NCBI GenBank assembly: GCA_963807605.1
Contig: CAWECG010000004.1
Span: 640,001 to 704,000, forward strand
Source of the DNA: Candidatus Bathyarchaeota archaeon
GTDB taxonomy: Archaea; Thermoproteota; Bathyarchaeia; 40CM-2-53-6; RBG-13-38-9
DNA: 64,000 bases
Direction of reading: 5' to 3'
Position numbers and translations under genes: made by a program. Numbering within the stretch: the first letter of the stretch is position 1; every line of letters starts with the position of its first letter. Below the pieces are notes generated by a model that saw only the letters and a program-made list of their open reading frames with translations, ran no database searches and had not been told where the DNA came from. Shown piece after piece: positions 659-46,704 of this stretch.

Positions 659-964
659 ATATTAGTTGGATCAAACAATATTCCAACCTGAGTATCAAAT
701 CCAAGCTCAGGTTCCGCTTTCTTTCTTCACATTTCTGAATTACCCTGTTAGCGCGCGCTATGAATGTCATATAGATTGCTTTATGTGATTTACTGGTTCT
801 AGGTTCAATAGTACTGCTCGTAAATTACGTAAGATAAGGTATGCTGGGAAATCATGGAGAGTAGAGAAAAAAGTGGATGTGTTAGGCTTCGTCTTTTTCT
901 AATGACTACTACTGTAGATAAGGCTGCGACTAGTAGAGCGCGCTTTGTGGTACTGCCTACAGAG

Positions 965-14152: not shown

Positions 14153-14170
14153 CTATGGCGCGCGCCCACT

Positions 14171-27294: not shown

Positions 27295-28032
27295 TCACAC
27301 TCCTCTTCTATAAGAATAGAATTTCATTAACAACCATCTTCCTATTTTTGGAAATTTGTGTATGATTCGTCCGAGTCTAATATTCGGTGTGGAGCCTGAA
27401 CCATGAAGGATGCGTTCTAATTCAGCCAGATAGACTCTTTCGCGCAGAATACGGCTGGCGCGCGCTTCTGCAATAAAGCCCTCGTACTTGCATATGAAAT
27501 CCTGCCTATCAAGAGGAATATCTTCAACAGGTATACTGTGCAAGAATCTAAGCCAAGCTGCCGCTCGCTCCAGCTGTTTGGATAATGCCCACAGTTTGCC
27601 CTGTGTAGGGGGGATTATTCTGGTCCATCGCAGGAGATCATTCAGACATTGGCCCTCAACTCCGGCTGCGATCACAGTGTTCAATCTCTCGATCACATCT
27701 ATTGGCTCTGAGATCTTGAAATTACTTGAATTCCTGAAGTGCATCCATGCAATCTAGTGCCTTCGAAATTCGTCAACCGCAGCACCATCATCTAGATAAA
27801 CCTTCGCAAAGAGAGTCCTTTCCACCTGACCGATCCTTGCATCTTCAAGAACAACCTTGAAGGTCTGTCGCGCATACAATCCTTTTGGCGGAAAGCTCGC
27901 ATTCCAGCGCAAAGATAGAAAAGAGTTTCCCATTATACGGAAGGTCAAGTTCGGGTGACCTTTCAATTCGGGAAAGTACTGTGAGAGCCGCGGCTTTATT
28001 TCATCAGCCAACAGGTCTATTGTTCGTTTCAC
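27295..28032 (-). pseudogene. Chimeric pseudogene: 5' half of kinase-like gene (nonsense at 27754) fused to a methyltransferase 3' end
   Basis: 27466-28032 is paralogous to 33058-34116; 27295-27457 is paralogous to the C-terminus of 28105-28914; junction GCGCGCGC at 27458-27465. Confidence 0.88.
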
Positions 28033-28104
28033 CGAAGCCTCAGCTCAGCAGTACTCATGTGTCGGACAACCCAGAATCCTCCGCCAACGATTGCAGCATA
28101 GCAC

Positions 28105-28914
28105 CTACTTATCTGCTTTGAAGTCTTCATGCGCCTTGAATACTAATATACCCATATGACGCCTTCTATAGGAATAGAATTTCATCAGTAACCATCTTCC
28201 GATTCCCGGAATTTTATCCATTACTCGTCCGATTCTAATCTTCCATCCGGAACCTGTATCATAAAGGATGCGTTCTAACTCAGCCACATAGATTCTTTGG
28301 CATAGGGTACGACTGGATTTTGGATCTAATCTGAATCCGTAGGAGTCGAGTTCTTTGCTCCAGAAGTCTTTCTCATGTACATTTACACGAATTTTGTCCC
28401 ATGGCTTTGTGATGTACGCAGTTTTCATTACCAGTATTCCATCATTCTTAATTACGCGCCTAATTTCTTGGAACACGAGGTCATAATTCCCGACAAACTC
28501 CACTACTTCGAACATCGTGACAAGATCGAAACGCCCACTTGAAAATGGCAGTCCCTCCTTCTCGAGATCTATCTTCGTGAGATACGAAGAAACCTGGTTT
28601 GGTGCTTGTGAAAGCGCATACTCACTTACGTCTACGCCGTAGCTCTCGATACCTATGTTTCTTAATGCGAGAACCAAGAATCCCTTAGCGCATCCAATAT
28701 CCAGAACCGAGAGGGGTTTCCACGTCTTTTTTAGTTGATCAGCTAAGAATTCAAACTCAGGAAGAATGTTCGTTATCTTGTATAGAACCGAGATTCTTCC
28801 TGGTTGATCTGGGTCATCTACTCCGCTATCGAAAAAATCCTTATTGAACACTCCTTGTTTATCTGTCACGCATCTCTTCCCAGTAGCAGCGACTTGCTTC
28901 CTTATTTTGAGCAC
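28105..28914 (-). CDS. Class I SAM-dependent methyltransferase
   Basis: VLDIGCAKG, GVDVS, FDLVTMFEV. Confidence 0.9.
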   Translation of the reverse strand: MLKIRKQVAATGKRCVTDKQGVFNKDFFDSGVDDPDQPGRISVLYKITNILPEFEFLADQLKKTWKPLSVLDIGCAKGFLVLALRNIGIESYGVDVSEYALSQAPNQVSSYLTKIDLEKEGLPFSSGRFDLVTMFEVVEFVGNYDLVFQEIRRVIKNDGILVMKTAYITKPWDKIRVNVHEKDFWSKELDSYGFRLDPKSSRTLCQRIYVAELERILYDTGSGWKIRIGRVMDKIPGIGRWLLMKFYSYRRRHMGILVFKAHEDFKADK

Positions 28915-29436
28915 AGCCCGAACTTAACTGTTATGTGGCCTATTCTTGTGTTTGAATGCATCCGAAGTGACTTCGTGATCACGATCATACTCGCCGTTTA
29001 GAGAAATCTAATCGTCTGCGTTGCTGCAAAGCGTGACCTGTATCGCAAGCGGCACGTAAGAAGTCGTGCCAATATAGCCTTAATGCTCGCTGTTTCAACA
29101 GGAGCATTTTAGGAACTATGAAGAATGTAGGTGAACAAATCAACAGGCAGTTTACTATCGAACAGCTTTAATTCCAGACTATTTCTGATAACTTCTGTAT
29201 TGTCCTGTACAAACGCCCTACATGACCTTTGGCTTTTGCTTGATGAAGCTCTCGGCGATTGTGTGATATATCTTACTTGAGTTGTGGGGGAAGCACTTAC
29301 GACATCTAAGGTTGTCCTGTATATGTAGGAGCCTTCTAAATGCTAAATAAGCATGCAATAATCATAGCGACGCCGAGTCATTGTCTTAAACGTGAATGGT
29401 TACTTCGACACTGCTGGACAGACCAAGACCAGCAGG

Positions 29437-30181
29437 TCAGTAGATGCCTAGACGATGAAGTCTTAGCACAGCCTTGGTAGCAATGCGCATTCGAAGTCGT
29501 GGAGGTCTCAAGTCCGGCTTTGGGATTTTGGATGCAGAAAGCCTTTGCACGTCGGCTCCGAACTTCAGACTTAGTCCTTGTAGAAACTCTTCGAAGAGCC
29601 GCCGGTCTGGCTGCGAATAGCCTGGAGAGTAAGCGAGATATATGGAGGATGGCACGTCCTTGAAGTCCCAAGATAAGAACTCGTTGAGTAACCTCCGAGT
29701 GTGGGATGGGGCATAATTGATGGAGGCAAGGCCATCCCAGTCTATATCAAGGTGTTCGCCACGCTCGATACCGTGACACTCGTGAAACGTGAGCTCGGTG
29801 AACTTGAGCGGTACCTCAGGTCTTGGTTTTAGCCTGCGCAGTAAGAGGTGGGGAATTGATGTGAGGTCACTCTCGTACTTGACGGCCCCAACATCATAGC
29901 GACGACCCCCAAGATCGTCATGGATCCAGCGCACCGCGCTGACGATTCCTTCTATTATCGCATAAGCGAGGAAATTCCCCGAATCGATTTTGGATCCTTT
30001 TCGGGATACTTGGATCGGTTACAAATGCATGGCTGTGGCGCCGATCGATGAGCAGTCCCCGCATGTCGCAATGGAAGTCGACATGAGCAAGGTGGATACA
30101 GCGATCTCCGCGTTCGCGCCAGAGTTGGTAGATCTGATCATGTTCTTCAGCAACAAAAATATTAGCCATTGAGGATTTCAC
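29437..30181 (-). pseudogene. UPF0489-like (arginase-fold) protein, frameshifted near 29990
   Basis: EEHDQIYQLW, HVDFHCDM, IDSGNFL, HLDIDWD, YSPGY over two frames. Confidence 0.65.
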
Positions 30182-30489
30182 CTTGTGTTGAACCTGTCAA
30201 CCATTCTTTTGTTCCGCATAAATTCAATTTCAGGTCAAACTGTTCCAAGCAGTTACGCAACCGCGATCTAGGACACTCAAATGAATAGGCAAGCTATGCC
30301 CGGATCAGCCCCTGCACGTGACTCTGACCCGCAGTCATCCAGAACGACTTTAGCGAGTGCCTCACACACGATGTGGACAGATATCTAGCGGAAGGCTTAC
30401 GTAACCCTTCCTCGACAATTCCACTCACCCTACAATCCCCAAACCCGCTCCAGAACCTATTATTGACAATACTGTTCCATACGCGCGCG

Positions 30490-30869
30490 TTTTCACCTCG
30501 ATGTAGCTCGGTCTTTCAACCGAAAAGGATGGTCAGTCATGGCCCCTCTTGCTGAATGACGATCCGGTAGCATCTTAATATAACTATAGGTATTCTAACA
30601 AGATGTATTGCTATCTCTTTGGATTCGAACCTGCTTATTCGAAATATGCCGTCGGAATGATCCTCGACCTCTATCTAATCGAGCACAGCATTCAGAATGG
30701 TATGAGAGAATATGATTTCACGAGGGGTGATGAACCCTACAAGAGAATGTGGGGAACACTCGCAAAGAGAAACCTAAAAATTATTGCTGCAAGAAAAAGG
30801 ATTGTTCACTTCACATACGATTGCATTGACTTCGCCAAAGACAGAGCACGTGCATTAACACTTACATAA
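30490..30869 (+). pseudogene. GNAT 3' fragment (paralog of 26015-27088)
   Basis: Aligns to 26708-27088; starts abruptly after ACGCGCGCGT (30481-30490); contains a stop and a frameshift. Confidence 0.88.
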
Positions 30870-30966
30870 TCCTAACTGCTGAACTAGGACTATGTGTTCA
30901 CCAAAAGCTCTGACTTCTCCTTTCTTCTTCCTGATAAACCCTGACATGCTTTAGCACACGCAGAAG

Positions 30967-31114
30967 GGATTAGCGCTGGCTTAGATGCCGATTCCAACTG
31001 ATTTATCTCACCCACCTTTGACCAAGCTTTGCCAACGGGATGCTCTGGAAATCCCAAACTTGTTGCCTTCTTGGTAAGGAGGCTCATATCCGCATACGAA
31101 ATCTTGCCTGTCAA
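30967..31114 (-). pseudogene. Internal fragment of the kinase-like gene
   Basis: Aligns to ~33449-33598; bounded by GCGCGTGCGC (31115-31124) and GCACACGC (~30954). Confidence 0.8.
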
Positions 31115-31164
31115 GCGCGTGCGCTGCCAGGTAGACCAATTAACATCTCTCCGTAACCAGTTCT

Positions 31165-32146
31165 TTATTCTTGCTTGACGGATACCGACCATTCTTCAAT
31201 ACGAAGGATGTCCTCCATACTTAACCTATACGAAATATCCTCACCAATCTCATAGTTTCTGCCTTCCATCCTAAAGAACCGATTTCCCCACGCGCTCGCC
31301 CGTGTGTTCGTACGCAATGGTGATGTGTCAAAACTGATCTCGTCGTCAAATATGACTCGGAAATAAAAACATAATCCGTCCATTGACCCAGAGCGAACCA
31401 CTCGTTTCGACGTCTCTATAAATTTGGGGAAGTCACTTTGAGACGTTAATTCGTTGAGATCAAATGCAAGAATAGCCCTTGGCTCACATAGAAAGTAGTC
31501 CAAAGCAGCGGGCCCCACCCATTTCAGCTTGTAGCCAGCAGGTTTGAACGCGTGCGCGCGTTTGAACTTATCGATTTCATCCAAATATTTTAGAAATCCA
31601 TAGTCGATATTGTTCAGTCTATTTTCCCATAAAAAAGGAACCTTATGATCCTTTCTTAGGCTGATCGGTTCAAGAAAGAGTTCAAACTTACTCGACAGGA
31701 TTCGCCCTGTTTTTTAGTAAACGATCTTTCAGATCCAAAACGTCTTGGACCATATTCTCGTTAAAAAGATTATCGCCCATCTGTTCTTGAAGAATAATGT
31801 CTACGTTCTCTGGCGGTGCAAAGTCTCGACTATTGGTCTGCACAAATTCAATATTACTTATATTGTTGTGTTCCGCAATTCTCCGTGCTACTTTAATAAT
31901 ATCTGAATGATCGATCGCATAGATTCTCTTTGGTTTTTGTTCAGCCGCATAAAATGAGAGAATTCCTGTCCCGGTGCCAAGGTCAACGACAACATCACCT
32001 GGCTTGATGTAACGTTTGATAGCATCATGATAGCTTTTATTCCGAACAGTATCTGCAAGCATCTTTTCGTGTTCGTAAAGGTCGTTAAATTCTTCAACGG
32101 CTTTTGCGTCAATGAGGAGGGTCCGAAGAAATCTGCTCGAATTCAA
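31165..32146 (-). pseudogene. PRMT-like (arginine methyltransferase fold) SAM methyltransferase, frameshift near 31710
   Basis: EHEKMLADTVRN, VVDLGTGTGIL, VDIILQEQMG..LFNE, then FELFLEP...DGLCFYF.VIF...STSP...WG. Confidence 0.75.
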
Positions 32147-32248
32147 GAGTCTTATTAGACTTGGAAGGACCAGCGCAGTGACTTTTCGGTTATTTGTGAC
32201 ACTTCAAAAACTCCTCCGAATACCCCTCTAAGCGCGCGCTTTTTAAGC

Positions 32249-33028
32249 TTAATGCTTCGAATTTCCCTTTGTACCTGCCGCCAGAATTAGATAGGCCAAA
32301 TGGATTGAGAATGGCAGGGCGGAAAGTAATCTTTCTAGATACACTGAAAAACTACCTGTCTTCACTGCAATAGAGTAAGGCACATTTACGATGTATACTA
32401 GTTTGTCCAGACTAAAGCCGCCAATCTTGACTAAAAGCCTCCGAATATCGAGAAGGTTAAAACAAAAATAAGTGATTCTAGGGGTTCCAGCCCCATGGTA
32501 GCCTTCCTTTCTTCGCAGTATCATCCTTTGCTTCAGTCCCCAATTGTAAACTGTCAAGACAAATACTCCTCCGGGTTCCAGAATTCGAGAAACTTCCCTG
32601 ATAGCCTTCGTCCTACTAGCCTCACTCGGAAGGTGCTCAAACACTTCACAGCTTATGACCCTATCAAAAGATGATTGATTCAAAGGTAGAAAGCATATAT
32701 CAGCACAAATAGCCTCTGCCCTATTCCAGCATTTATTCTTCAGAATTTTCAAAGATTCATTCGCGAAGTCCACGGCAACAACCGAGCATCCTCGCTTAAG
32801 AAGTTCCTCAGTAATTATCCCGGTTCCTGAACCTAAATCTAGAACTTGACTATTCTGTTCCGCCCTCAGTTCATTTACTGTTCGAACAACTTCGTAGAAA
32901 TGGTATTTATTTAGATGCGCTTCATCGTAGGTTTTTGCCTCTTTATTTCTAACCTTCATCTCTGAACTTTTCAGATAGTCATCATCCTCTTTCTCGGTCA
33001 GGTGCGTTGACTTTTTTGACTCTAACAT
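32249..33028 (-). CDS. Class I SAM-dependent methyltransferase
   Basis: VLDLGSGTG, FDRVISCEVFEH, LEPGG. Confidence 0.9.
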   Translation of the reverse strand: MLESKKSTHLTEKEDDDYLKSSEMKVRNKEAKTYDEAHLNKYHFYEVVRTVNELRAEQNSQVLDLGSGTGIITEELLKRGCSVVAVDFANESLKILKNKCWNRAEAICADICFLPLNQSSFDRVISCEVFEHLPSEASRTKAIREVSRILEPGGVFVLTVYNWGLKQRMILRRKEGYHGAGTPRITYFCFNLLDIRRLLVKIGGFSLDKLVYIVNVPYSIAVKTGSFSVYLERLLSALPFSIHLAYLILAAGTKGNSKH

Positions 33029-33057
33029 AATCTTCCAACCTTACAAGTGCGTGGCAG

Positions 33058-34116
33058 TCAGGTGTCGTTAGAAAGTGATTGGATACTTGCGAGCGCTTTT
33101 CTAGCCACAAGAGCCGCGAGCAAATGGGGTGTTTTGCTACCGTGAAGTAACTCCACAAAATATACCCATTGCCTTAGAAGTTCCAACGCGCAAAAGGCAT
33201 TAGCCACCTTACTACCAGCCTCGTTCCTTCCACTTTGAAGAAATATAGATCTTACCATGTGTCTAAGTGTACCGTTGCCTAGCTGCGGAACCATAAGTTC
33301 CGGAACCATAAGTTCCGGAACCATAAGTTCAATAGAACAATAGAACGTAGCCAAGTCTAGAAACGCTGGACCTATCTGAAGACCCTCAAAATCGACTGCA
33401 GAGACACGAGATTCGCTCAGGAAAACATGATCAGGGCAAAAAGCATAATGGATTAGCGCTGGCTTAGACGCCCATTCATACTGTCTTATAATATCGATCA
33501 TTGACCAAGCTTTACTAACGAGATGCCCTGGCAATCCTGAACTCACTGCTCTCTTGATAAGAGCTTCATATCCGCATACGAAATCTTCTCTATCAAGAGA
33601 AATATCTTCAACATCTATGCTGTGCAAGAACCTGAGCCATCCTGCCGTTCGCTTCATCTGTCGGGCTAGCGTCAAGGTTCTTCCCTGTGTAGGGGGCATT
33701 ACCTTGGCCCATAGCACCAGATCATTCAGGCATACACCTTCGACTCCCGCTGTAACTACTGCATTTACCCCTTTGATCAGGTCGATCGGCTTTGAGACTT
33801 CGAAATCATTTGATGTCTCAAAGTGCTTCCATGCGATTTGCAGCTTTCGAAATTCGTCAGCCGCAGTGAGATAGTTTTGATGAACCTTCACAAACAGAGT
33901 TCTTTTCACCAACTTAGTGCTGGTGCTTTCGAGGACTACCTTGAAGATTTGTCGACCGCACCATCCTTTTGGCGGGAAGCTAGCGTTCGTGTGTAGAGAT
34001 GGAAAGCAGCGATCCGCTATACGGAAAGTCAAGCCGGGGCATCCTTTCAATTCGGGAAAATATTCCAAGAGCCGCGGCCTTATTTCATCAGCCACCAGAT
34101 CTATCGCTCGTTTCAT
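33058..34116 (-). CDS. Aminoglycoside/choline phosphotransferase-like (kinase fold) protein
   Basis: LFVK...DEF, LRFLH, LIHYAFCPDHV, VDFE, GPAFLDLA. Confidence 0.75.
   Translation of the reverse strand: MKRAIDLVADEIRPRLLEYFPELKGCPGLTFRIADRCFPSLHTNASFPPKGWCGRQIFKVVLESTSTKLVKRTLFVKVHQNYLTAADEFRKLQIAWKHFETSNDFEVSKPIDLIKGVNAVVTAGVEGVCLNDLVLWAKVMPPTQGRTLTLARQMKRTAGWLRFLHSIDVEDISLDREDFVCGYEALIKRAVSSGLPGHLVSKAWSMIDIIRQYEWASKPALIHYAFCPDHVFLSESRVSAVDFEGLQIGPAFLDLATFYCSIELMVPELMVPELMVPQLGNGTLRHMVRSIFLQSGRNEAGSKVANAFCALELLRQWVYFVELLHGSKTPHLLAALVARKALASIQSLSNDT
33286..33330. repeat. 3 x 15-bp in-frame tandem repeat (ELMVP)
   Basis: cggaaccataagttc x3. Confidence 0.95.
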
Positions 34117-34274
34117 TCAAACGCGCCAGTTCAGTAACTAATGTGTTGAACAATCTAGCCCTACACACGCGTGCGTCAAGTCTGAGAAGATAATTGGATC
34201 CAATAACTGCCCTCCAGACAATCTGACAGCGTCAAGTTTTCTCATTGATCTCTCATAACCACGGGTCTACCAGC

Positions 34275-35342
34275 CTATTTGTAGCGCGCGCGTTTGAGAA
34301 GATCTATTGATCGATAGGCCCTATAGATGATCTTCTTTCTAGCAGCTAGCATTCTTAGGTTCCCTCTTCTGAGTGTATTCCACCGCCGTTTGTAGGGTTC
34401 ACTCTCGTGCCCCCTCATAAAATCATATTCCTTCAGACCCCACTTAATGCTGCTCGCTATAAGATAACGATTCAAAAGCGATCCAACGCTGTACTTGGAA
34501 TAGAAAGGTTCAAAACCAGATTGGTAGAAATACATCTTATCAGAATACTTGAAATTATACTGAGCCGCTACAGGCCGGCTGTCCGGCATCAAGAAGCTCA
34601 GGGCCAACCATCCTTTCTCTGCAAAGGACCTTGCCACGTCGAGATGGAAATCTCGTACCTTCTGATCTGAGAAAATACCAACTAAATTCTTGGAACGCAT
34701 ACGCCTTTGATGTAGATCAAAGAAAACCTCCATGGCATTATCGGGGAGTTCGCCCTCCGTCAAAACCCTGAAATGTACTTTGTGGTTCTCCTTCAATCTT
34801 CTTTCCTGCCTTCTTAGGTCTTTTATGAAATGTGGGTCGACTCCTCGCAAGTAGTCCCCGAAATCGTTCGGTAGTGGAATGTAAGCACATCCGACCATTT
34901 CCTTTTCTTTAAAGTCCATGGATTCGGATGAAGCTGATCTTAGTAGTTTAGCCGTCTCAAAGCAATTAGACACGTTGTTCAGTTCGATAACGTTCCAACT
35001 CGGCTTATTCTGGTTTACATAATCAAGGATCATATCTACAGGTTCCTTAGCCTTCGCAGTGAGTAGGAAGCTATGATAATCTGACTCCGGAGTTCCAACG
35101 AATTCTACCTTAAGCCCCAGCATCGGGCATCTAGAGATCATTAGCGGAGCCGCGGCCAAGATTCTTTCGCCATCGACAACTGTGACCAGAAGAAACCCCC
35201 TCCCCGTCCCGAAATGTTTCCACCAATTTGACAACCACTCCCATGTTAGGAATACATGGTTATCGATACTTTCTTTCAAAGTACTGTTCCATAGATCTCT
35301 CCGATCCAAGAACTCTTCCAAGGACCACTTGACTACTCTCAA
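34275..35342 (-). CDS. GNAT acetyltransferase (CelD/BcsL-like), paralog of 26015-27088
   Basis: Same motifs; inverted orientation. Confidence 0.9.
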   Translation of the reverse strand: MRVVKWSLEEFLDRRDLWNSTLKESIDNHVFLTWEWLSNWWKHFGTGRGFLLVTVVDGERILAAAPLMISRCPMLGLKVEFVGTPESDYHSFLLTAKAKEPVDMILDYVNQNKPSWNVIELNNVSNCFETAKLLRSASSESMDFKEKEMVGCAYIPLPNDFGDYLRGVDPHFIKDLRRQERRLKENHKVHFRVLTEGELPDNAMEVFFDLHQRRMRSKNLVGIFSDQKVRDFHLDVARSFAEKGWLALSFLMPDSRPVAAQYNFKYSDKMYFYQSGFEPFYSKYSVGSLLNRYLIASSIKWGLKEYDFMRGHESEPYKRRWNTLRRGNLRMLAARKKIIYRAYRSIDLLKRARYK

Positions 35343-35607
35343 GTTAACGACTTCTCAAAATATGATACAAACTTCTAACAATGTAACTGACTCTAGCCGC
35401 GAAGCCAGTTAACTGTTACTACGTGCGCTTGCATTTCGGGAGATCTCACTGATGACGTTTGTCCTGCTAATCTAGTTGTGAAAAAATCCTTCCAGAGATT
35501 TTGCATTCATAAGTGGAAAACAAATATTGTCGCGTCGCAACAGAAAGCCATGCCTACGGCATCTCCCCCTCACTAGCTCCAATATTCCTTCTATCATAAA
35601 CATATTT

Positions 35608-35868
35608 CTAGTATTTCATATATATTGTCCAGCCCCTGCACTTGGCACAAACTGTTTCTCGAACGTCATCTTTCGGACTGTAACTGGAGAAAACATGGCG
35701 CGCTCTTACGTAGGCGTCTCCATTCCAGACCTCCACCACTGACTTATCAATTATGTTTCCAAAATCACTCTTCCTTTGACTGACAAAACAACAAGGGGAT
35801 ACCCCTCCGTCCGAGTTGATTCTTATGTTTTCCCACAAATCGGAGCACTACAAAAAGGGGTCCACAGG
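35608..35868 (-). pseudogene. Orphan SPASM/twitch Fe-S domain (3' end of a radical SAM gene)
   Basis: CSDLWENIRINSDGGVSPCC...FGNI...EVWNG...CAKC; no radical SAM core upstream, GCGCGCGC at 35869. Confidence 0.78.
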
Positions 35869-36119
35869 GCGCGCGCTGTTAGTTCATTTGTCAAAATACG
35901 CACCAGATCTGACCTAAGAGTTGACTGAGGAATATCCTCATAACTATGACATCTAAGGACGGCTGGTCCTCACAAGTTCTATCTCTTAAGTGTTCCTTTC
36001 TGAGCACAACATCTTTCTCAGCGACATGTCAGAATAATTGTTTCGAACGCGCGCGCTACCAATAACATAACTCTGGTCCTAGCCTACATATATGCAATGT
36101 TTGCACAGGCGTCAAACAA

Positions 36120-37262
36120 TCATAATGGGCTCTGCTTACGAAGAATCATTCTAAATGCATGCTTCCAGGCGGCAAGTACCTTGTCTACATTACAGAAATC
36201 CAGCAACGCGTGATACGCATTATTCGATATATCATCCAAATCTCTCCTCTCTAGGATTTCTAAGACTCTTTCTGCGAGGTGTTCCACGCTGATATTGACC
36301 AGGAGAAATGCACTTCTTCCATCATCTAGAAGACTTGTTAACGCAGCAATAGGTGCAGCTAACACTGGCGTGCCACTCGCCATCGCTTCTAGCACCACTG
36401 CACCATACGCTTCGAATTTTGACGGCAGAACAAGTAACTTCAATTTCTTTAAGTAGGACTCAACTCTGTTGGTCCAAGGAATCAGAACTACTCGATCTCT
36501 TATTTTCAGAGAACCCACCTCCTGTTCGACCCATTCTTTGAAAGGCCCATCCCCAACCACTAAGAAGTTCACATCGCTCCTCCGTGATGCAACAATCGAA
36601 ATTGATTTAACAAACTCCATTATTCCCTTCTCCCAACTTAGGCGACCAACAAAACCAACGATGTTTTCCCTTTTAGAGGGCACAGAATAATTGAATACTT
36701 TAAAAAACGCCTTGTCACAAAATCTAACAGGCGCCACATACGTCTTTTCTACATATTTCCTAAGTACAGGATCCATCTTCAAAATATATTGTGAAACAGC
36801 AAGGATTCCTTTTGACCACCTGTAACACAGATCATCCATGATATCAGCCAGCCTCCAGAAGATGATACTTCTTGGATGAATTGGTAGACTGATCCCGCCT
36901 GTATACTCTATTGCATACTTCCTCAAAATGTGTAGCAACAACATCGTAAGTGGCATGGTAGTATGGGAACATACTACAAAATCTGTCCTTCGACTTAGTT
37001 TAAGTACAAGCATAGCCACCGATAAATCTTCCAACATAAATACGAGTATCCTCAGCAAAATATTGTTCATGGGAGTATTCAAAACTCTAGATAATGGTAC
37101 CTCGAACAAAATGACTTCCTTCGGCAGCTCCTCAGGCGTATCGTCCTTGAAACCGATGAGATAGACGGGCCTAAAATTAAGTAGAGTCATAATCTTAGCC
37201 GTATCGACGCGAAGCCAAGTCACAGGATTTCTCGGCGAGAAAACCAGAAGGATAGCTGGCAT
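36120..37262 (-). CDS. Glycosyltransferase family 4
   Basis: GFVGRLSWEKG, EAYGAVVLEAMASG. Confidence 0.92.
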   Translation of the reverse strand: MPAILLVFSPRNPVTWLRVDTAKIMTLLNFRPVYLIGFKDDTPEELPKEVILFEVPLSRVLNTPMNNILLRILVFMLEDLSVAMLVLKLSRRTDFVVCSHTTMPLTMLLLHILRKYAIEYTGGISLPIHPRSIIFWRLADIMDDLCYRWSKGILAVSQYILKMDPVLRKYVEKTYVAPVRFCDKAFFKVFNYSVPSKRENIVGFVGRLSWEKGIMEFVKSISIVASRRSDVNFLVVGDGPFKEWVEQEVGSLKIRDRVVLIPWTNRVESYLKKLKLLVLPSKFEAYGAVVLEAMASGTPVLAAPIAALTSLLDDGRSAFLLVNISVEHLAERVLEILERRDLDDISNNAYHALLDFCNVDKVLAAWKHAFRMILRKQSPL

Positions 37263-37299
37263 GATAGATCTATGTGACTTCTTTTATTCCTCTTGATTC

Positions 37300-37430
37300 A
37301 TTTACGTACGCGCGTAAATGTGTATTTCACATATGGTTCTGGATTTTTTGGAAATATGCTATTCCTTGACGCTTTTAGGAAGCTGTGTTCCCACATCATT
37401 TCCCATAACTTCAACCTCTCTGACCATACA
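37300..37430 (-). pseudogene. 3' fragment of the PIG-L-like gene
   Basis: VWSERLKLWEMMWEHSFL...NPEPYVKYTFTR; begins after GCGCGCGC 37431-37438. Confidence 0.85.
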
Positions 37431-37602
37431 GCGCGCGCATTCTTCGATTCATTGAGTTTATCGAGGACATAGATATCATTAGACGCTTCCCGACATTCCC
37501 AAGGCCAAATTGTACCTATTTCCAGTAGACGCCATCAGCTATATATCCGTTTACCCCATTGGCCAGTTCATTGGATAAGTTTCTTTTGGACTACACACGC
37601 AC

Positions 37603-38394
37603 CTAACCTGACGTCTTCGGTTTCACTGCCCTCACCGTTATTAAGACCTCATAATCGGGGTCAAAGTAATCCACTTCCCCCTCGCCCAGCTCCTCCGTCG
37701 CCAAACCTTCAAGAAAGGCAACTGCCGCGAAAACGTTTCCATATGACTTGACCGTGATGTTTGCAGCCGGAAAGTACTCCTGGAACAGCCGTTGTGCTGA
37801 TTGGGTTGTAAATCGCCAGTATTCGCCCCATGGGTCTATGCCAATGCGACAGCTAATCTTGTTGAGGCCACTCGTAGTGGCCAAGAGCACCCCGCCCGGC
37901 TTCAGGATACGATAGAGGTGCCGAAGTGTTGCTTTCACATCGTAAATGCACTCAAGTGTTTGCGTGAAGATAATGGAGTCAAAAGTATCCGACTGTATAT
38001 TGTCAGCGCGGGTCAAGTCCGCCACAATGGTTGCCTTCCGATTGCCCTCCACTGCATGAAGCACATCGCTCTTGGTGACGCGGTTACCTCCAAACTTTCG
38101 AGTGTAAAAGTCGTCCTCTATTTCTAGTACATGACCCCGGATGTCCGAAGAGTATGTAGATAGAAACTGCTCTATGTAGTGACGGTCAATGGGCAGACCT
38201 CGGTCAAAGCCAAAATTGCGATTAATAGGCGTCAGCCGTCGCAAGTCACCAAACCGCACCGTTCCTGCTAGTGGCCATACCAATCGGTATCGACATTTCT
38301 GCTTCCAAAGCCAATTTTCAGCCTTTAGCGGGAGAACTACTTTCGCTAGTGCCTTGACTCGATCGCTGAGAATAGAAGAAAAATCTTCTCTCAT
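37603..38394 (-). CDS. SAM-dependent methyltransferase-domain protein
   Basis: FGFDRGLPIDR, VLEI, FDSIIFTQTL, LKPGG, YWRFT. Confidence 0.85.
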   Translation of the reverse strand: MREDFSSILSDRVKALAKVVLPLKAENWLWKQKCRYRLVWPLAGTVRFGDLRRLTPINRNFGFDRGLPIDRHYIEQFLSTYSSDIRGHVLEIEDDFYTRKFGGNRVTKSDVLHAVEGNRKATIVADLTRADNIQSDTFDSIIFTQTLECIYDVKATLRHLYRILKPGGVLLATTSGLNKISCRIGIDPWGEYWRFTTQSAQRLFQEYFPAANITVKSYGNVFAAVAFLEGLATEELGEGEVDYFDPDYEVLITVRAVKPKTSG

Positions 38395-38426
38395 TTGCTC
38401 ACGACAAACCTACATGGGTTTCTTCA

Positions 38427-39401
38427 TTAGCGCGGGCGCGTAAATGTGTAGTTCACATATGGTTCCGGATTTTCCGGGAACATTGGGTTCCTTGACGGTT
38501 CAAGGAAGCTATGTTCCCACATCATTTCCCATAACAACCTCAATCTCTCTGACCATGCACTGTCGATAGCCTCATATTCAACTGGATTAAGGGTTTCTTG
38601 AGGCTTTCCGTAAATTGTGGTGAAGCGAGATCCCAGTCTGTCCAATCCAAGTTTAAGCATTTCCGGGAATATGAGATTCTTTGATGATTCAAGGAAGCTA
38701 TGTTCCCACATCATTTCCCATAACTTCAACCTCTCTGACCATACACTGTCGATAGCCTCATATTCAACCGGATTAAGGGTCCCTTGAGGCTTTCCGTAAA
38801 CTGTGGTGAAGCGAGATCCCAGTCTGTCCAGTCCAAGTTTGAGCATTACATCTTGAATAGCTATGGCTGTGGCATCACCAGCCGCCATATGATCACGATG
38901 TTCCCACGCGTTAGAGGAGTACTTTCTGCCTGCATGCCAACAAACGAGATGCAGCGCGTAATTATTTGTATCAACGGCCCGGCAAATTATATCACATATA
39001 TCTTGTGCAATTTGCGAAATAAAATGTTGGGCCAGGCTATCTGGGAAATTCAGGGTAAAGACGCTCCTGATTTTCAAATACGTAGCGCGACATTTGACAG
39101 AGGCTAAACGTTTGTTCATGAGATTGCGGCTAAACCATCGTTGCCTATCTCCATTTGGAGTGTGTACAGTCTGGATTTCCAGATCTGCTTTGTAAGAACC
39201 GTGTTTGACATCCCAGTTATGATTACTAAAGTCAGCGGCTCCGTCAGTCACAATTATCAGCAATATTGGATGTCTGCCAACATCATTTTTTATAATCTGG
39301 CCACCCCACTCAATATCCCAATCGTCTGGGTGGGCTGCGATGTAGACAGCCAAACCGTTTTCGTCCTCATTGACGGGTGGACCAGGGATTAACCTCAACA
39401 C
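38427..39401 (-). CDS. PIG-L/LmbE-family deacetylase with internal C-terminal duplication
   Basis: AHPDD, VTDG, FPDS, HRDH. Confidence 0.8.
   Translation of the reverse strand: MLRLIPGPPVNEDENGLAVYIAAHPDDWDIEWGGQIIKNDVGRHPILLIIVTDGAADFSNHNWDVKHGSYKADLEIQTVHTPNGDRQRWFSRNLMNKRLASVKCRATYLKIRSVFTLNFPDSLAQHFISQIAQDICDIICRAVDTNNYALHLVCWHAGRKYSSNAWEHRDHMAAGDATAIAIQDVMLKLGLDRLGSRFTTVYGKPQGTLNPVEYEAIDSVWSERLKLWEMMWEHSFLESSKNLIFPEMLKLGLDRLGSRFTTIYGKPQETLNPVEYEAIDSAWSERLRLLWEMMWEHSFLEPSRNPMFPENPEPYVNYTFTRPR
38472..38846 (-). repeat. Tandem ~186-bp (62-aa) in-frame duplication inside the PIG-L gene
   Basis: MLKLGLDRLGSRFTT...WEMMWEHSFLE...FPE occurs twice. Confidence 0.93.
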
Positions 39402-39706
39402 TTTGTCTTCCTTGCTAGATTTACGCGCCTGCCACTTGGCTTCCTCATTAGCTTTCGCATTTCTCTTCCATTTATGTCCATACCATATATGCTGCTTCTG
39501 AGAACAAAACGTACTGGTTTTTGACCCCTAGAACTCTCAATAACATTGTATCGCCCGTGACTGTGACATCGAAAGGAGGCAGTTCTTCAACCGAAGTTCC
39601 ATCTCTTAAGCGTTACGTGCACGTAGTCTCCTCGAACAATCCATCAGGACGACCCTCCGGTTTGGGAAGGACCTCCCAATAACGTCAAAAGGTGAATAGC
39701 GCGCGC

Positions 39707-40379
39707 TTTTGAGGTTATAAGTGGAATGGATCTAACAAATTCCATTATCCCTTTTTCCCAGCTCAAGCGCGAGGCGAAACCGACAATATTTCTCCTGTAG
39801 GAAAGGAGGAGCAACTGAACTTCTCGAAGAATTCTTCGTCACAGAGCCTGCTGGGAGTCGCGCAGACCTTGGCTGAATACCTCTTCAACAGAGGATCCAT
39901 CTCAACCAATCCAGGTGAAGGGACGAGGATGCCCCCGACCATCTATAATGCAGATAATCTAAAACGCAGTTGATCTTCCAAGATAGAACAGCTTGAGGGT
40001 GTGATGAAAGTGTAACTCCTCCTGTGTAAACCAAGGAATCCTTACGCAGAATGCGCGATAGCAACAAGGGAAGAGGCATTGAGCAATGATAGAAGATTAT
40101 GAAGTTAATGCGCTTGTTTATTCTGAGAAAAGTCAGAGTCACTGTCAGTTGCTCCAATAGAAAAGCAAATGCTCCCATGAATCCATTTGCAGGCGTATGC
40201 AAAATTCTCGAGAATGCTACCTCCAGAAACGTAATCCTTCCTTGATGATCATATGAGTCTCTTCTTGGACTAATCAGAAAAATATCTTTGAAATCGATCT
40301 TTCCCAGTATTTTAATCATATCAGCAATTCTAGCCTCGAACAGATTTCTGGGTGAGAAAACTAGAAGAACCGATGACGT
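39707..40379 (-). pseudogene. GT4 pseudogene (paralog of 36120-37262), 3'-truncated
   Basis: Start ATG>ACG, two frameshifts, ends at ...EKGIMEFVRSIPLITSK|GCGCGCGC (39699-39706). Confidence 0.85.
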
Positions 40380-40479
40380 AAGAGATCTATCTGATCTCTT
40401 GACTCCGTTAGCACGGAATAATCTGTAGTTTAGTGTCTTTCTCTATTGATATCCATTAGTACGTTCATGGTTCAAACGG

Positions 40480-41457
40480 TTAATTCATCCTGGCTCTGAT
40501 AATTCTCTCTATCGTTTGACTGGGGGCATTCAGTCTTTTCATGCTTAGAAGGTCTTCGGCTTTACTTATGTCAACTAGTATTCTTTTCTTATCTTCAGCC
40601 GCATACAAGACTGGAAGCCCAGTATTAATAACCTTTATTTCGGGCGATATTTTTTCCTGCGAGCATTCTACAATTTTGTCTTTGACAATGTTAGCTAGCT
40701 CCAGTATTGTGATAGGCTCTGGCCAGACAAGGTTGACTACGTTGTCATTTTTTGTGTCAAGCACATTCTCTAGAGTCTTCTTGGCATAGGCTTCGAATGC
40801 TCTGCAGACATCAACGATATCGACATATAACATGGGGCGATGCATGCTGTGTGCATATGGCGTGATTGCCTCACCTAGCAACCCTTTTGATATGAATATG
40901 TTTGCTGCGGCATTCTCAGGCATACCTTCGCCAAGTACTGTCCCCATTCTTATGACTCCATAAAACTTAGAGGACATCTCGTTATAGAGTTTCATAATAG
41001 TCTCTTGAGCGATCTTGCTTAGAACATAGAATCTTGCGGTATCCTCTACCTTATCTGGCTTGAAAGCGAACGATTCATCAATGATACCACTAAACTGTCC
41101 GTAACCGAAAACATGCCACGTACCGGCCAGCAATAAACCCTTGGGCGACTTGTGCTTGTCTACAGCGCTGCATAGGTTTTGGATGCCAAGGAGGTTAACT
41201 CCATACCCAGCTCGCTTTACCTCATTTACATATGGTATCTGAACTATCGCTGTGTTGATCACTAGAAAAACGTCTTCGATACCTTTGTTAACATCATCAC
41301 TATCGGTAATATCACAGAACTCGAACTGGACAGTCTGCCTGATACTATCCGGCACGGGATTGGTATCCAGAACTTTCACTCTAAATGAATTACTCAAGTA
41401 CTTGGCCAAAGAGGATCCTATGTAACCTGACCCACCAAGAATGGCTATCTCGTACAC
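40480..41457 (-). CDS. NAD-dependent epimerase/dehydratase
   Basis: GGSGYIG, YVLSK. Confidence 0.9.
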   Translation of the reverse strand: MYEIAILGGSGYIGSSLAKYLSNSFRVKVLDTNPVPDSIRQTVQFEFCDITDSDDVNKGIEDVFLVINTAIVQIPYVNEVKRAGYGVNLLGIQNLCSAVDKHKSPKGLLLAGTWHVFGYGQFSGIIDESFAFKPDKVEDTARFYVLSKIAQETIMKLYNEMSSKFYGVIRMGTVLGEGMPENAAANIFISKGLLGEAITPYAHSMHRPMLYVDIVDVCRAFEAYAKKTLENVLDTKNDNVVNLVWPEPITILELANIVKDKIVECSQEKISPEIKVINTGLPVLYAAEDKKRILVDISKAEDLLSMKRLNAPSQTIERIIRARMN

Positions 41458-41748
41458 CGGTCTTGCACCAACTGATCGATCTGATGAATCAATAAGATAT
41501 TAAAAGGCTAGCGCATGATGACATGTCAGTCCAGACTTCAAAAAAGGGCAAAAATGCCTTCACGTGCTCTAAACTGCACAATCACGCAGGGTTGCCAAAT
41601 ACTCAGGCACCCCTAGAATCATGGCCTCACACCATAATAGCTGAGAGGATAGCAAGGATTTGCAACTATGATAGGTTTAGAATAACAGCGTCGTTATACC
41701 ATTTGAATATCGCCTGCGAGCATAATTGTCTGTTGTCACAACGCGCGC

Positions 41749-42012
41749 TCCAAGAATTTGTATAGCTACCGAGACCTGTTCTAACACAAAGGCGAGTATC
41801 CTCACTGATAGGTTACCTACAGGTTTGTTCAAGACTCTCGACATCGGTAATCTACATATGGCGACGCCTTCAGGCAGTCCTGCGAGCGTATCCTCGTTTG
41901 GACCTATAAGAATAACAGTCTTGAAACCAAGTAGCTTCAAAATATTGGCCGTGTCTATCCCGATCCATGTTACAGGATCTTTTGGAGAGACAACCAGAAC
42001 GATAGCTGACAT
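41749..42012 (-). pseudogene. GT4 5' fragment (paralog of 36120-37262)
   Basis: MSAIVLVVSPKDPVTW...; homology ends at CGCGCGC 41742-41748. Confidence 0.85.
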
Positions 42013-42047
42013 GATAGATCTCTAGCGCGAAGTATTTCTCTCGATTC

Positions 42048-42105
42048 ATTTACACGCCGGCGCGTAAATGTGTAGTTCACATACGGTTCTGGATTTTTCG
42101 GGAAA
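42048..42105 (-). pseudogene. Short 3' fragment of the PIG-L-like gene
   Basis: FPEKSRTVCELHIYAP in one frame, FPKNPEPYVNYTFTR in the homologous frame; begins after GCGCGCGC 42106-42113. Confidence 0.8.
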
Positions 42106-42168
42106 GCGCGCGCTAGACTCCAAAAAACACAGCAGCATCTGTTTGCTCACGTAATACTAGCAGGGAAT

Positions 42169-45901: not shown

Positions 45902-46704
45902 TTTGAATAAATGTTTTTGATGGTTACGGAAGCTCAAATGACTGAGATCTCTCGATAAGTCATCGACATAAACAAAAGCGCGCCCCCTGACAACGAGTAC
46001 GGACACTGCACTAATCCAAAGAGTTTAGAGCTGGTATGCGCTGCATGCTTTAGCGCGCGCAGATTCCTCCTAGTCCAAACGGTCAAAAGAGGTTTTCATT
46101 CAATCGCATGCCAAACATACTCATCCATGAACAAAGATGGAAGAGGGACCTTCACATAGGCGCGCTCATCGATTGTTGCACATACTTTTTGTCCTTGAAA
46201 CTGTAGCCAGCTATCCGTAAGATTTTCTCCTAAATATGATAGGGAAAGTGGTGGTGTATCCCTCGGTAGGCTCTCATACCGAATCCAACGGTTCAATTTC
46301 AGGTACGTGCACGCGACCTATGGCATCGTTGTCATATCTCTTGGTGAGAGCATTCTAATTTGAATCACTAGGTTTCATTCTTTTGGTTGCAGTGGTGTCA
46401 TACATGATGAGAGCATCAAGATTTGAACAACTAAAATTCCTGATCCCAGCGTACTCATCTGGGCTTCTTGATAATAAAACCATGAACTTGGCGCAGGATA
46501 GCAGATTGAGGGTCCTATAATACACCCCACCCAAAGCCTCGCCGGAAAAATGTGTATGAACGACTTCACTAGTTGTTCCGATACTATCACTGGTAAATTG
46601 AACCCGCGCAACTCCGCCTCCCCGCGCAGTTACTGTAATGTTTCTTAGTCCAGCGATTTTGCAAAAAGTCACGTTTGTTCCAACAAACATACAACACATG
46701 ATCG

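What the first reader, a model, noticed from the sequence alone, without database searches (positions are those of the whole stretch)
27458..42113. The (GC)4 motif is absent from the intact paralogs at the breakpoint, so it behaves like a written scar or one-sided donor site
Seen: intact PIG-L reads CCATACACTGTCGAT where the fragment reads CCATACA-GCGCGCGC (37431). Intact PIG-L reads GGGAACATTG where the 42106 fragment reads GGGAAA-GCGCGCGC. Intact GT4 reads TCAAGGAGGGGT where the 39699 pseudogene reads TCAAAA-GCGCGCGC. Intact GNAT reads GTCCGTGACTTTCA where the fragment reads ACGCGCGCGT-TTTCA. Inference: this is not recombination between two pre-existing sites. The tract is either added de novo at repaired ends, left as an element footprint, or brought by one partner only.
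Basis: partly seen in the sequence, partly recalled or inferred. Interest (0 to 1): 0.8.

Follow-up and report, generated by a model that had tools for sequence, protein, structure and literature searches.

The report
Newly written GC scars at DNA joints
In this uncultured Bathyarchaeia archaeon, about eight alternating G/C letters that neither parent sequence had sit where genes were cut and rejoined, and they are probably copied from a small RNA attached to a primase-like gene, which would be an undescribed way of joining broken DNA.

Summary
Observation confirmed. GCGCGCGC occurs 11 times in the window (0.24 expected). At 27458, 30482, 37431 and 42106, similarity to the intact paralog stops exactly at the tract and the paralog has no tract there; 39699 is softer. 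It holds genome-wide. Of 320 tracts, 88 sit on a paralog-homology breakpoint (2.4% of random sites), and the paralog lacks the tract in 76 of those 88. At about nine of eleven junctions with paralogs for both flanks, neither has the tract, and one is a clean 252-bp deletion sealed by GCGCGCGC. A metagenome relative (L143) keeps the parental PIG-L–GT4 arrangement and reads through both window breakpoints without a tract. No simple insertion was seen, so de novo addition beats footprint or one-sided donor.

Where similarity ends at the tract edge, the last parental base is A in 18 of 18 cases, which suggests templated synthesis. I independently found a covarying structured RNA at the 3' end of a PriS-like gene. 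Its variable "template" matches both G000 scar classes, the T-flanked tracts of G031 and the (GATC)n tracts of G032. It fails or is unclear in G034, G033 and G036.

Earlier reports of this scan reached a similar reading on other DNA. No paper describing it was found.

The parts
27458..27465 (.). GC tract joining two gene fragments (chimeric ORF 27295-27744)
   Evidence: The methyltransferase-derived similarity ends at ...CTGG. The APH-derived similarity starts just after the tract.
27305..27457 (-). Fragment of a methyltransferase C-terminal tail
   Evidence: 78.6% identical to 28163-28316 of the intact gene. tblastn matches MT residues 193-251.
27466..28032 (-). Fragment of the N-terminal half of an APH-like kinase gene
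   Evidence: tblastn matches APH_33058 residues 1-193 at 58.5%. blastn aligns 27490-28069 with 33574-34153.
28105..28914 (-). Intact methyltransferase; parent-like paralog with no tract at the breakpoint
   Evidence: Pfam Methyltransf_11. Alignment.
33058..34116 (-). Intact APH-like kinase; parent-like paralog with no tract at the breakpoint
   Evidence: Pfam APH. Alignment.
30482..30489 (.). (CG)4 tract at the 5' edge of a GNAT fragment
30491..30907 (+). 3' fragment of a GNAT (Acetyltransf_6) gene
   Evidence: 83% identical to 26708-27124. tblastn matches residues 232-353.
26015..27088 (+). Intact GNAT paralog; no tract at the position matching 30491
34284..34292 (.). GC tract that forms the last codons of the second GNAT gene (34275-35342)
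   Evidence: Similarity to GNAT_26015 ends at 34293.
37431..37438 (.). GC tract at the truncation point of a PIG-L 3' fragment
37297..37430 (-). PIG-L 3' fragment (last 44 codons), followed by an intact GT4 gene
   Evidence: 81.8% identical to 38423-38559 and 88.9% to 38665-38745. Collinear with relative L143.
36120..37262 (-). Intact GT4 glycosyltransferase downstream of the fragment; this is the parental PIG-L-GT4 arrangement
   Evidence: Pfam Glycos_transf_1. L143 has PIG-L, then 35 nt, then a 376-aa GT4.
38427..39401 (-). Intact PIG-L gene; reads through both breakpoints without a tract
   Evidence: Pfam PIG-L..
39699..39706 (.). GC tract at the probable truncation point of a GT4 pseudogene
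   Evidence: Strong similarity ends at the tract and is weak beyond it.
39707..40373 (-). Frameshifted GT4 pseudogene, roughly residues 3-228
   Evidence: Three tblastn HSPs in two frames
41742..41748 (.). 7-nt CG tract at the other end of the captured fragment
   Evidence: The GT4 fragment ends at 41752.
41752..42104 (-). Captured fragment: last 17 codons of PIG-L, the spacer, and the first 87 codons of GT4, with tracts on both sides
42106..42113 (.). GC tract at the truncation point of the second PIG-L fragment
32232..32239 (.). GC tract 10 nt after the stop of methyltransferase 32249-33028
35869..35876 (.). GC tract in the non-coding stretch between GNAT and GT4
36048..36056 (.). GC tract 64 nt after the GT4 stop
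   Evidence: L143 has GCGCGC 5 nt after its GT4 stop.
46053..46060 (.). GC tract outside the stated range
14158..14165 (.). GC tract outside the stated range
751..758 (.). GC tract with the full TA...TA flanks, outside the stated range

Best explanation
The tracts are scars written de novo when two DNA ends were joined.

Shown:
- The junctions join unrelated or truncated sequences.
- The parent-like copies lack the tract.
- The tract always abuts an A, on each strand.
- The same behaviour is seen genome-wide and in other archaeal genomes.

Inferred mechanism:
- Each broken 3' end is extended by a few templated nucleotides, (T)A then GCGCG or CGCGC in this genome.
- The extension is made by a PriS-like archaeo-eukaryotic primase paralog (G000:C3:72237-73127, a family of about 265 aa).
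- That enzyme copies a short single-stranded stretch of a structured RNA encoded at the 3' end of its own gene.
- A terminal A pairs with the template, which gives the 1-nt microhomology.
- The added tails are self-complementary, so any two tailed ends can anneal (2-4 bp), be filled in and be ligated.
- The result is A(GC)3-5T or A(CG)3-5T.

This joins ends with no shared sequence. It therefore produces deletions, gene truncations, chimeras and captured fragments such as those in the glycosylation island of this window.

My confidence is about 0.85 that the tracts are de novo junction filler. It is about 0.5-0.6 that the primase-like gene and its RNA write them.
For: De novo filler:
- 88 of 320 tracts lie on homology breakpoints against 2.4% of random sites. 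Only 3.4% are spanned by a paralog against 12.9%.
- The paralog lacks the tract in 76 of 88 cases, including pairs 95-100% identical.
- About nine junctions have paralogs for both flanks with neither carrying the tract. C3:253658 is a 252-bp deletion replaced by GCGCGCGC.
- The in-window junction 27458 has both parents present and neither has the tract.
- Fragment 41752-42104 has tracts on both sides.
- Relative L143 reads through both PIG-L breakpoints.

Templated addition:
- Across 60 breakpoints, homology ends exactly at the tract in 18, and the last parental base is A in all 18.
- There is one extra base in 16, and it is the palindromic A/T in 12.

Enzyme and RNA:
- The PriS-like family has invariant DxD, SGxxGFH and D-P-M-R motifs and matches PF01896 and solved PriS structures.
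- The RNA-like element at its 3' end has 13 pairs, 10 with compensatory changes. 92% of cells pair against 71.5% in shuffles (0 of 500 as high), and slid controls score 0.17 or less against 0.665.
- G000 has two copies. One template reads ...GACGCGCUAAG... and predicts TA|GCGCG. The other reads ...GAGCGCGUAAAAA... and predicts TA|CGCGC.
- These match the two scar classes in G000. G-start sides number 404 (A 82% at -1, T 43% at -2). C-start sides number 236 (A 73%, T 41%).
- G031's template ...ACGCAUAAAAC predicts AT|GCG. Observed: T 73% at -1 and A 37% at -2.
- G032's two RNAs carry ...GCGAUCAG.... That genome has (GATC)n runs of 12 nt or more at 70 per Mb, against 0.4 in G000 and 0 in G031.
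- Those runs also sit on breakpoints: 10 of 137 against 12 of 1500 random sites.
- Family or RNA hits occur in 6 of 10 tract-rich relatives and in 0 of 21 tract-poor ones.
- RadA lies directly upstream of the gene in 8 loci, and in L028 the order is DinB-RadA-primase-like.
Against: - Nothing here shows that the RNA is transcribed or that the protein copies RNA. The case is comparative only.
- Four tract-rich relatives (G002, G004, G010, G015) gave no hit to the gene family or the RNA. G003, G007 and G009 hold only gene fragments. MAG incompleteness may explain this but is unproven.
- G034 has an intact gene and RNA but almost no tracts or enriched palindromes. The Brockarchaeota genome G033 shows nothing clear.
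- In G036 the RNA predicts GA|GCGCG, but TA|GCGCG dominates, 216 against 80.
- G032 also has many TA|GC-type tracts for which no matching RNA was found.
- My exact prediction for G032 (GATCGCGATC) was wrong; the enriched form is (GATC)n.
- The G032 sample was taken from tract-rich regions, so its densities are inflated.
- Paralogs stand in for the true parents. Only one true relative (L143) was found, and it covers one partner only.
- 12 of 88 breakpoints share the tract with the paralog. This fits re-use of an existing tract.
Confidence: 0.6

Rival explanations
1. The tracts are written de novo at joints, but not by the PriS-like gene and its RNA. The writer could be the replicative primase PriSL, another polymerase with terminal-transferase or slippage activity, or copying of a DNA palindrome. 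The RNA element at the primase-like gene would then be unrelated, for example a regulatory or L7Ae-binding element.
For: - Gene or RNA was not found in four tract-rich relatives.
- G034 has the gene and RNA but no tracts.
- The -2 base prediction failed in G036.
- GC-type scars in G032 have no matching RNA.
- PriSL is published as a mediator of microhomology end joining in Saccharolobus (PMC12019639).
Against: - A non-templated activity does not explain a constant filler with an obligatory A.
- It does not explain a flank that switches to T in G031, or the (GATC)n tracts confined to the genome whose RNA carries GAUC.
- Ku is found in only 3 of 31 genomes and does not track the tracts.
- The conserved PriS-like paralog p4 is present in tract-free genera and not found in three tract-rich ones.
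Confidence: 0.22
2. One-sided donor or hot spot. The palindrome pre-exists between genes, as a protein-binding, recombination or fragile (Z-DNA or cruciform) site. Breaks or insertions happen at it, so one partner brings the tract.
For: - 12 of 88 breakpoints share the tract and one flank with the paralog.
- Seven copies of an IS5-family element are bounded by GCGCG(C) on both sides, as if they landed in tracts.
- Tracts are enriched just after gene 3' ends, 13% against 6%.
- L143 and G000 both have a GC tract shortly after the GT4 stop.
Against: - At about nine junctions with both flanks traceable, neither parent has a tract. One is a simple deletion sealed by the tract.
- Fragments carry tracts at both ends.
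- Two independent truncations of the same PIG-L-GT4 unit, at different positions, each carry a tract that the relative lacks.
- Nothing is conserved beyond 12 nt.
Confidence: 0.08
3. Transposon footprint. An element that duplicates a GCGC target, or that ends in GCGC, inserts and later excises, leaving GCGC+GCGC.
For: - The IS5-family element has GCGCGC at both outer ends.
- AGCGCT with a duplicated GCGC would give exactly AGCGCGCGCT (inference).
Against: - A footprint should be a small insertion inside continuous sequence whose paralog has GCGC there. No such case appeared among 186 tracts with paralog hits, and paralogs show unrelated sequence at the breakpoint.
- There are 7 IS copies against 320 tracts.
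- Other genomes have T-flanked or GATC-type tracts.
Confidence: 0.03
4. Coincidence with gene ends. The palindrome is a terminator-like or regulatory signal after genes, and paralog similarity simply stops at gene ends.
For: 90% of tracts are outside ORFs of 150 aa or more, with some 3'-end enrichment. The TA flanks create stop codons on both strands.
Against: - The breakpoints lie inside the intact paralog's coding sequence: PIG-L codons 281 and 308, GNAT codon 232, MT codon 193 and APH codon 193.
- The intact genes do not carry the signal at their own ends at matching positions.
Confidence: 0.03
5. Assembly or library artefact, such as chimeric joins through a linker.
For: Very short fragments (57 and 152 bp) flanked by the same short sequence look like concatenated inserts.
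Against: - Fragment-to-paralog identity ranges from 72% to 100%, so the events are old and of different ages.
- The same tracts occur in independent MAGs from different studies, including a complete chromosome.
Confidence: 0.01

Closest known systems
Telomerase (TERT plus telomerase RNA), including de novo repeat addition at internal breaks (own knowledge)
   Same: A protein with a dedicated RNA whose short single-stranded template lies next to a helix. The template is proposed to be copied onto DNA 3' ends after 1-2 nt of pairing. The added sequence changes with the template between genomes.
   Different: The catalytic protein is an archaeo-eukaryotic primase paralog, not a reverse transcriptase. 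The product is a 4-6-nt self-complementary tail that joins two ends inside a circular chromosome, not a long repeat that caps an end. No biochemical evidence exists.
DRT10 / DRT2 / DRT9 defence reverse transcriptases with non-coding RNA templates (bioRxiv 10.1101/2025.10.16.682844; PMC12039810)
   Same: A prokaryotic enzyme encoded next to a structured RNA. A variable template loop dictates a repetitive DNA product, and the template sequence is poorly conserved between homologs.
   Different: Those are RT-family enzymes. DRT10 is protein-primed and acts in phage defence, making long tandem repeats, and it is not known to leave scars in the chromosome. Here the products are seen only as short junction fillers.
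PriSL(X)-mediated microhomology end joining in Saccharolobus islandicus (PMC12019639)
   Same: An archaeal AEP primase that does terminal transfer, anneals microhomologies and repairs double-strand breaks with small indels.
   Different: That is the replicative primase using microhomology already present at the ends. No constant filler and no RNA partner are reported. Here the filler is constant within a genome and is linked to a separate PriS paralog.
Ku/LigD non-homologous end joining (the LigD polymerase domain is an AEP; PMC8656161)
   Same: End joining without homology, an AEP polymerase that can add nucleotides at ends, and deletions and captured fragments at junctions.
   Different: Ku occurs in only 3 of 31 genomes searched and does not track the tracts. 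LigD fillers are not a fixed sequence.
HIP1 (GCGATCGC) of cyanobacteria and REP/BIME extragenic palindromes (own knowledge)
   Same: A short palindrome that is the most over-represented 8-mer of the genome.
   Different: The comparison rests on own knowledge: HIP1 lies largely inside genes and within continuous homologous sequence, and REPs are longer elements with conserved flanks. These tracts are 90% outside long ORFs, sit on homology breakpoints, and have nothing conserved beyond 12 nt.

Membership tests
Archaeo-eukaryotic primase (AEP) superfamily, for the candidate enzyme | Catalytic motifs I (DxD), II (SGxGxH) and III (hD) | tested here: met
   Invariant D97, D99, S148, F153, H154 and D205 in 27 family members. 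PF01896 hits. Profile hits to solved PriS structures at E=2e-11.
Telomerase-like ribonucleoprotein | The catalytic subunit is a reverse transcriptase (TERT/RT fold) | tested here: not met
   The linked protein is an AEP PriS paralog.
Telomerase-like ribonucleoprotein | A dedicated structured RNA with a short template complementary to the added DNA | tested here: inconclusive
   The structure is supported by covariation. The template matches the scars in G000 (two classes), G031 and G032. It does not match or is unclear in G034, G033 and G036.
Telomerase-like ribonucleoprotein | Extends chromosome ends with long tandem repeats | tested here: not met
   Tracts are 8-15 nt and internal to contigs, at joints.
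Telomerase-like ribonucleoprotein | The enzyme copies RNA into DNA | not testable with these tools
   Needs biochemistry.
Ku/LigD NHEJ | Ku present wherever the phenomenon occurs | tested here: not met
   Ku is in G000, G016 and G025 only. Tract-rich G001-G015 lack it, and Ku-positive G016 and G025 have 1-2 tracts.
Site-specific recombination (integron attC-like, Xer-like) | Both recombining partners carry the site | tested here: not met
   76 of 88 paralogs lack the tract, and both parents lack it at about nine junctions. L143 lacks it.
Transposon excision footprint | A small insertion within otherwise continuous sequence, at the element's target site | tested here: not met
   No contiguous-flank case was found. 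The only same-paralog case has 252 bp deleted.
HIP1-like iterated palindrome | Occurs within continuous homologous sequence, including coding regions | tested here: not met
   3.4% of tracts are spanned by paralog HSPs against 12.9% of random sites. 31 of 320 lie inside ORFs of 150 aa or more, which cover 73% of the genome.
REP/MITE-type dispersed element | Conserved sequence or structure beyond the core | tested here: not met
   Flank composition is at background beyond -2/+2.
Known RNA families (Rfam 15) | The RNA element scores against a curated model | tested here: not met
   No match to the element at E of 1 or less in four loci.

The most novel reading that the evidence does not exclude
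A primase-family enzyme with its own cis-encoded structured RNA works as a programmable end-tailing machine. It writes a short self-complementary tail, dictated by the RNA, onto any broken DNA end, so that any two ends can be joined. This would be a telomerase-like principle built on a non-RT polymerase. It would act in double-strand-break repair, and as a side effect in gene truncation, fusion and fragment capture, across Bathyarchaeia, Brockarchaeota and Nitrososphaeria.
Probability: 0.5. Interest if true: 0.95.

Novelty: categorically new. Interest (0 to 1): 0.86.

Why it matters
How most archaea rejoin double-strand breaks without Ku is an open question. A pathway that writes a fixed, readable scar would give a genomic record of every such repair event. 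That record would allow direct counting of deletions, fusions and fragment captures in uncultured lineages.

If the primase-like protein really copies an RNA template, it would be the first RNA-templated DNA-adding enzyme outside the reverse-transcriptase family. It would be a second, independent invention of the telomerase principle. It could also serve as a programmable DNA-end tagging or joining tool.

For annotation, the tracts flag pseudogenes, chimeras and module boundaries.

Tried and rejected
Tools and searches that gave nothing:
- The look-up of sequencing runs listed no run, so read laying could not be used. Read-level support and population variants were not checked.
- A DNA search of window 26-46 kb in 16 relatives found nothing usable.
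- PIG-L has no ortholog in the 15 family genomes.
- The metagenome scan gave a single 1.5-kb relative.
- Five literature searches found no description of this.

Candidate enzymes rejected:
- Prim-Pol PF09250 is not found in the genome.
- Ku does not correlate with the tracts.
- The conserved PriS-like paralog p4 (C3:316908-317657) is present in tract-free genus g5 and not found in tract-rich g3, g4 and g7.
- A motif regex for further AEPs found only the known ones.

Dead ends:
- My first flank-only blast design could not separate ending homology from continuing homology and was replaced.
- Simple regexes for the RNA in G000 missed it; the covariance model found two copies.
- A three-copy element with the tract inside (C1:572997, C3:844157, C3:581420) looked like an RNA gene. 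It is the upstream region of a small ORF.

Predictions that failed or were unclear:
- GATCGCGATC in G032; (GATC)n was found instead.
- GA|G flanks in G036.
- No enriched palindrome in G034 or G033.

Full report
**What was checked.** The window is G000:C4:640001-704000, part of a 2.65-Mb, five-contig genome with 47% G+C. Earlier notes of this scan call it Bathyarchaeia, and the named relatives agree. GCGCGCGC occurs 11 times in the window against 0.24 expected. The region 26-44 kb is a sugar-modification island. It holds two GNAT (Acetyltransf_6) genes, several methyltransferases, an APH-like kinase, a PIG-L deacetylase, an epimerase and GT4 glycosyltransferases, plus fragments of the same genes.

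**The quoted junctions.**
- The PIG-L fragment 37297-37430 matches the intact gene up to ...GACCATACA. It then reads GCGCGCGC where the intact gene reads CTGTCGAT.
- The second PIG-L fragment (42054-42104) stops 50 nt from the stop codon and is followed by AGCGCGCGCT.
- The GNAT fragment 30491-30907 begins directly after CGCGCGCG.
- At 27458 a methyltransferase tail and the N-terminal half of the APH-like gene are joined at the tract. Both intact parents lie in the window and have unrelated sequence at those points.
- At 39699 strong similarity of a frameshifted GT4 pseudogene ends at the tract. Only 3 of 14 identities follow, so I rate that one probable.
- A 7-nt CGCGCGC at 41742-41748 bounds the other end of the 42106 fragment. 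That fragment of about 350 bp therefore has a tract on each side.

**Genome-wide behaviour.**
- There are 320 alternating G/C runs of 8 nt or more. Their distribution is patchy.
- The only flank signal is A at -1 and T at +1 (77-80%), with a weaker T at -2 and A at +2. The full form is a 12-nt palindrome.
- Queries of tract plus or minus 400 nt were compared with the rest of the genome. 88 of 320 tracts have a paralog alignment that ends within 4 nt of the tract, against 71 of 3000 random sites. Only 11 of 320 are spanned by an alignment, against 388 of 3000.
- At 76 of the 88 breakpoints the paralog has no GC tract. This includes pairs that are 95-100% identical up to the tract.
- Eleven tracts have paralogs for both flanks, and in about nine neither paralog has a tract. 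At C3:253658 both flanks map to one paralog locus 252 bp apart, which is a deletion sealed by GCGCGCGC.
- No tract was a plain insertion into continuous sequence.
- 289 of 320 tracts lie outside ORFs of 150 aa or more, which cover 73% of the genome.

The held relatives have no DNA or PIG-L match to this island. One metagenome contig, L143, does. It carries the end of PIG-L, a 35-nt spacer and a 376-aa GT4, which is the arrangement both window fragments derive from. Aligned, L143 reads straight through both breakpoints with ordinary PIG-L sequence. Its only GCGCGC lies 5 nt after the GT4 stop. So two independent truncations of the same unit each gained a tract that the relative lacks. Relatives for the other partners were not found.

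**Microhomology.** I took 60 breakpoints whose paralog is at least 80% identical and lacks the tract.
- Homology ends exactly at the tract edge in 18.
- There is one extra base in 16, and it is the palindromic A/T in 12.
- There are 2-4 extra bases in 6.
- Homology runs 1-4 nt into the tract in 16.
- In all 18 exact cases the last parental base, read towards the tract, is A.

A constant filler that always starts from an A, whether parental or added, points to copying of a fixed template after 1-nt pairing.

**Footprint and hot-spot rivals.** A 1.14-kb IS5-family element (DDE_Tnp_1 plus DUF772) has GCGCG(C) at both outer ends in seven copies. It may land in tracts. As a source of footprints it fails, because footprints would be small insertions in continuous sequence, and none was seen. 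Twelve of 88 breakpoints share the tract and one flank with the paralog. This suggests that existing tracts are sometimes re-used or re-broken.

**Search for the writer.**
- Ku and a LigD-type polymerase domain exist in G000. Ku is found in only 3 of 31 related genomes and does not follow the tracts.
- Following a lead from earlier notes of this scan, I looked at PriS-like paralogs.
- One of them (p4) is conserved in tract-free genera and was dropped.
- The other, G000:C3:72237-73127, belongs to a family of about 265 aa with all AEP catalytic motifs invariant.
- I fetched 27 loci from named MAGs of Bathyarchaeia, Brockarchaeota and Nitrososphaeria. They show a conserved element at or just past the gene's 3' end.
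- The element consists of GAUGAAA, a variable stretch of about 15 nt, an 8-bp stem, a conserved loop with a 3-bp inner hairpin and GAUGAC, and then the stem's return strand.
- RNAalifold gives 13 pairs, 10 with compensatory changes. On counting, 92% of cells pair against 71.5% in shuffles (0 of 500 as high), and slid controls are far lower.
- Rfam has no match.
- In 8 loci RadA lies directly upstream, and in L028 the order is DinB-RadA-primase-like.

**Does the variable stretch behave as a template?** A covariance model finds two copies in G000, four in G001, five in G003 and one in G013. It finds none in 21 tract-poor relatives.
- **G000.** The two stretches read ...GACGCGCUAAG... and ...GAGCGCGUAAAAA.... 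Their complements predict TA followed by GCGCG and TA followed by CGCGC. Both classes exist. There are 404 tract sides starting with G and 236 starting with C, each preceded by A (82% and 73%) and T at -2 (43% and 41%). Five-nucleotide tails that overlap by 2 bp give the commonest 8-nt tract (inference).
- **G031.** The stretch reads ...ACGCAUAAAAC. The tracts are preceded by T (73%) and then A (37%), as predicted.
- **G032.** Both RNA copies read ...GCGAUCAG.... That genome has (GATC)n runs of 12 nt or more at 70 per Mb, against 0.4 in G000 and 0 in G031. These runs lie on homology breakpoints, 10 of 137 against 12 of 1500 random sites.

**Results that do not fit.**
- G034 has the gene and RNA but almost no tracts.
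- The Brockarchaeota genome G033 shows no clear palindrome.
- In G036 the RNA predicts G at -2 but T dominates. Its second RNA copy lacks the 5' stretch.
- G032 also has TA|GC-type tracts with no matching RNA.
- My exact predicted joint for G032 was wrong.
- Several tract-rich MAGs lack the gene. These genes usually sit on 1-3-kb contigs, so binning loss is plausible but unproven.
- Kin are not independent, and the G032 sample was drawn from tract-rich regions.

**Verdict.** The most likely writer is the PriS-like protein with its cis-encoded RNA, at about even odds. This is inference from comparative data only. Earlier follow-ups of this scan reached similar conclusions on other pieces of this genome and on other genomes. 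My tests were run independently, and their agreement is not extra evidence. I found no publication describing constant-sequence junction fillers in archaea or an AEP with an RNA template.

Noticed in passing
window 38471-38847: The intact PIG-L gene has an internal tandem duplication of about 190 bp (38471-38661 against 38660-38847, 90% identical). The relative L143 appears to lack it: 168 query residues map to 105 codons.
   Followed up: partly
G000:C1:359514-360652, C4:41595-42734, C1:381536-382674, C3:1079164-1080302, C3:246504-247639 and two older copies: A 1.14-kb IS5-family insertion sequence (DDE_Tnp_1 plus DUF772) whose copies are all bounded by GCGCG(C) on both sides. It either targets the tracts or its ends were joined by the same process.
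   Followed up: partly
G000:C1:590767-592249: A bacterial-type end-joining pair, Ku and a LigD-like polymerase domain, with a GCGCGCGC tract just upstream. Ku is rare among the relatives searched (3 of 31).
   Followed up: partly
L028:122-3280 (Thaumarchaeota MAG); also L022, L024-L027, L029 and L031: The primase-like gene with the RNA element lies directly after radA, and in L028 after a Y-family polymerase gene as well. This looks like a repair gene cluster.
   Followed up: partly
G032 (MAG MFD04408.bin.1.92), C2:413283-413365 and C2:422396-422477: Two gene-plus-RNA copies lie 9 kb apart with the same GAUC-containing variable stretch. A (GATC)3 run lies immediately upstream of one of them.
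   Followed up: partly
L140:1500-1585 (G036:C3:150137-150211): An RNA-element copy that has lost the stretch between GAUGAAA and the stem. It carries ...ACGCGCUAAAC... after the 3' strand instead, so it is a rearranged or decayed copy.
   Followed up: no
G000:C3:316908-317657: A second small PriS-like paralog (250 aa), 69-71% identical across five genera. CGCGCGCGCG lies about 60 nt upstream of its reading frame. Its function is unknown and it does not track the tracts.
   Followed up: partly
G000:C1:572864-573233, C3:844027-844393, C3:581279-581641: Three copies of a roughly 370-bp unit with a small ORF. They carry a CGCGCGCG tract in the upstream region. In the third copy the tract has decayed by two substitutions, which shows that old tracts erode.
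   Followed up: partly
G000:C1:536800-536974: Three tracts lie within 175 bp and separate fragments of 57 bp and about 95 bp copied from distant loci. This is a patchwork of very short captured pieces.
   Followed up: partly
one search hit list: Most metagenomic members of the primase-like family sit on contigs of only 1-3 kb. This suggests that assemblies break around this gene.
   Followed up: no
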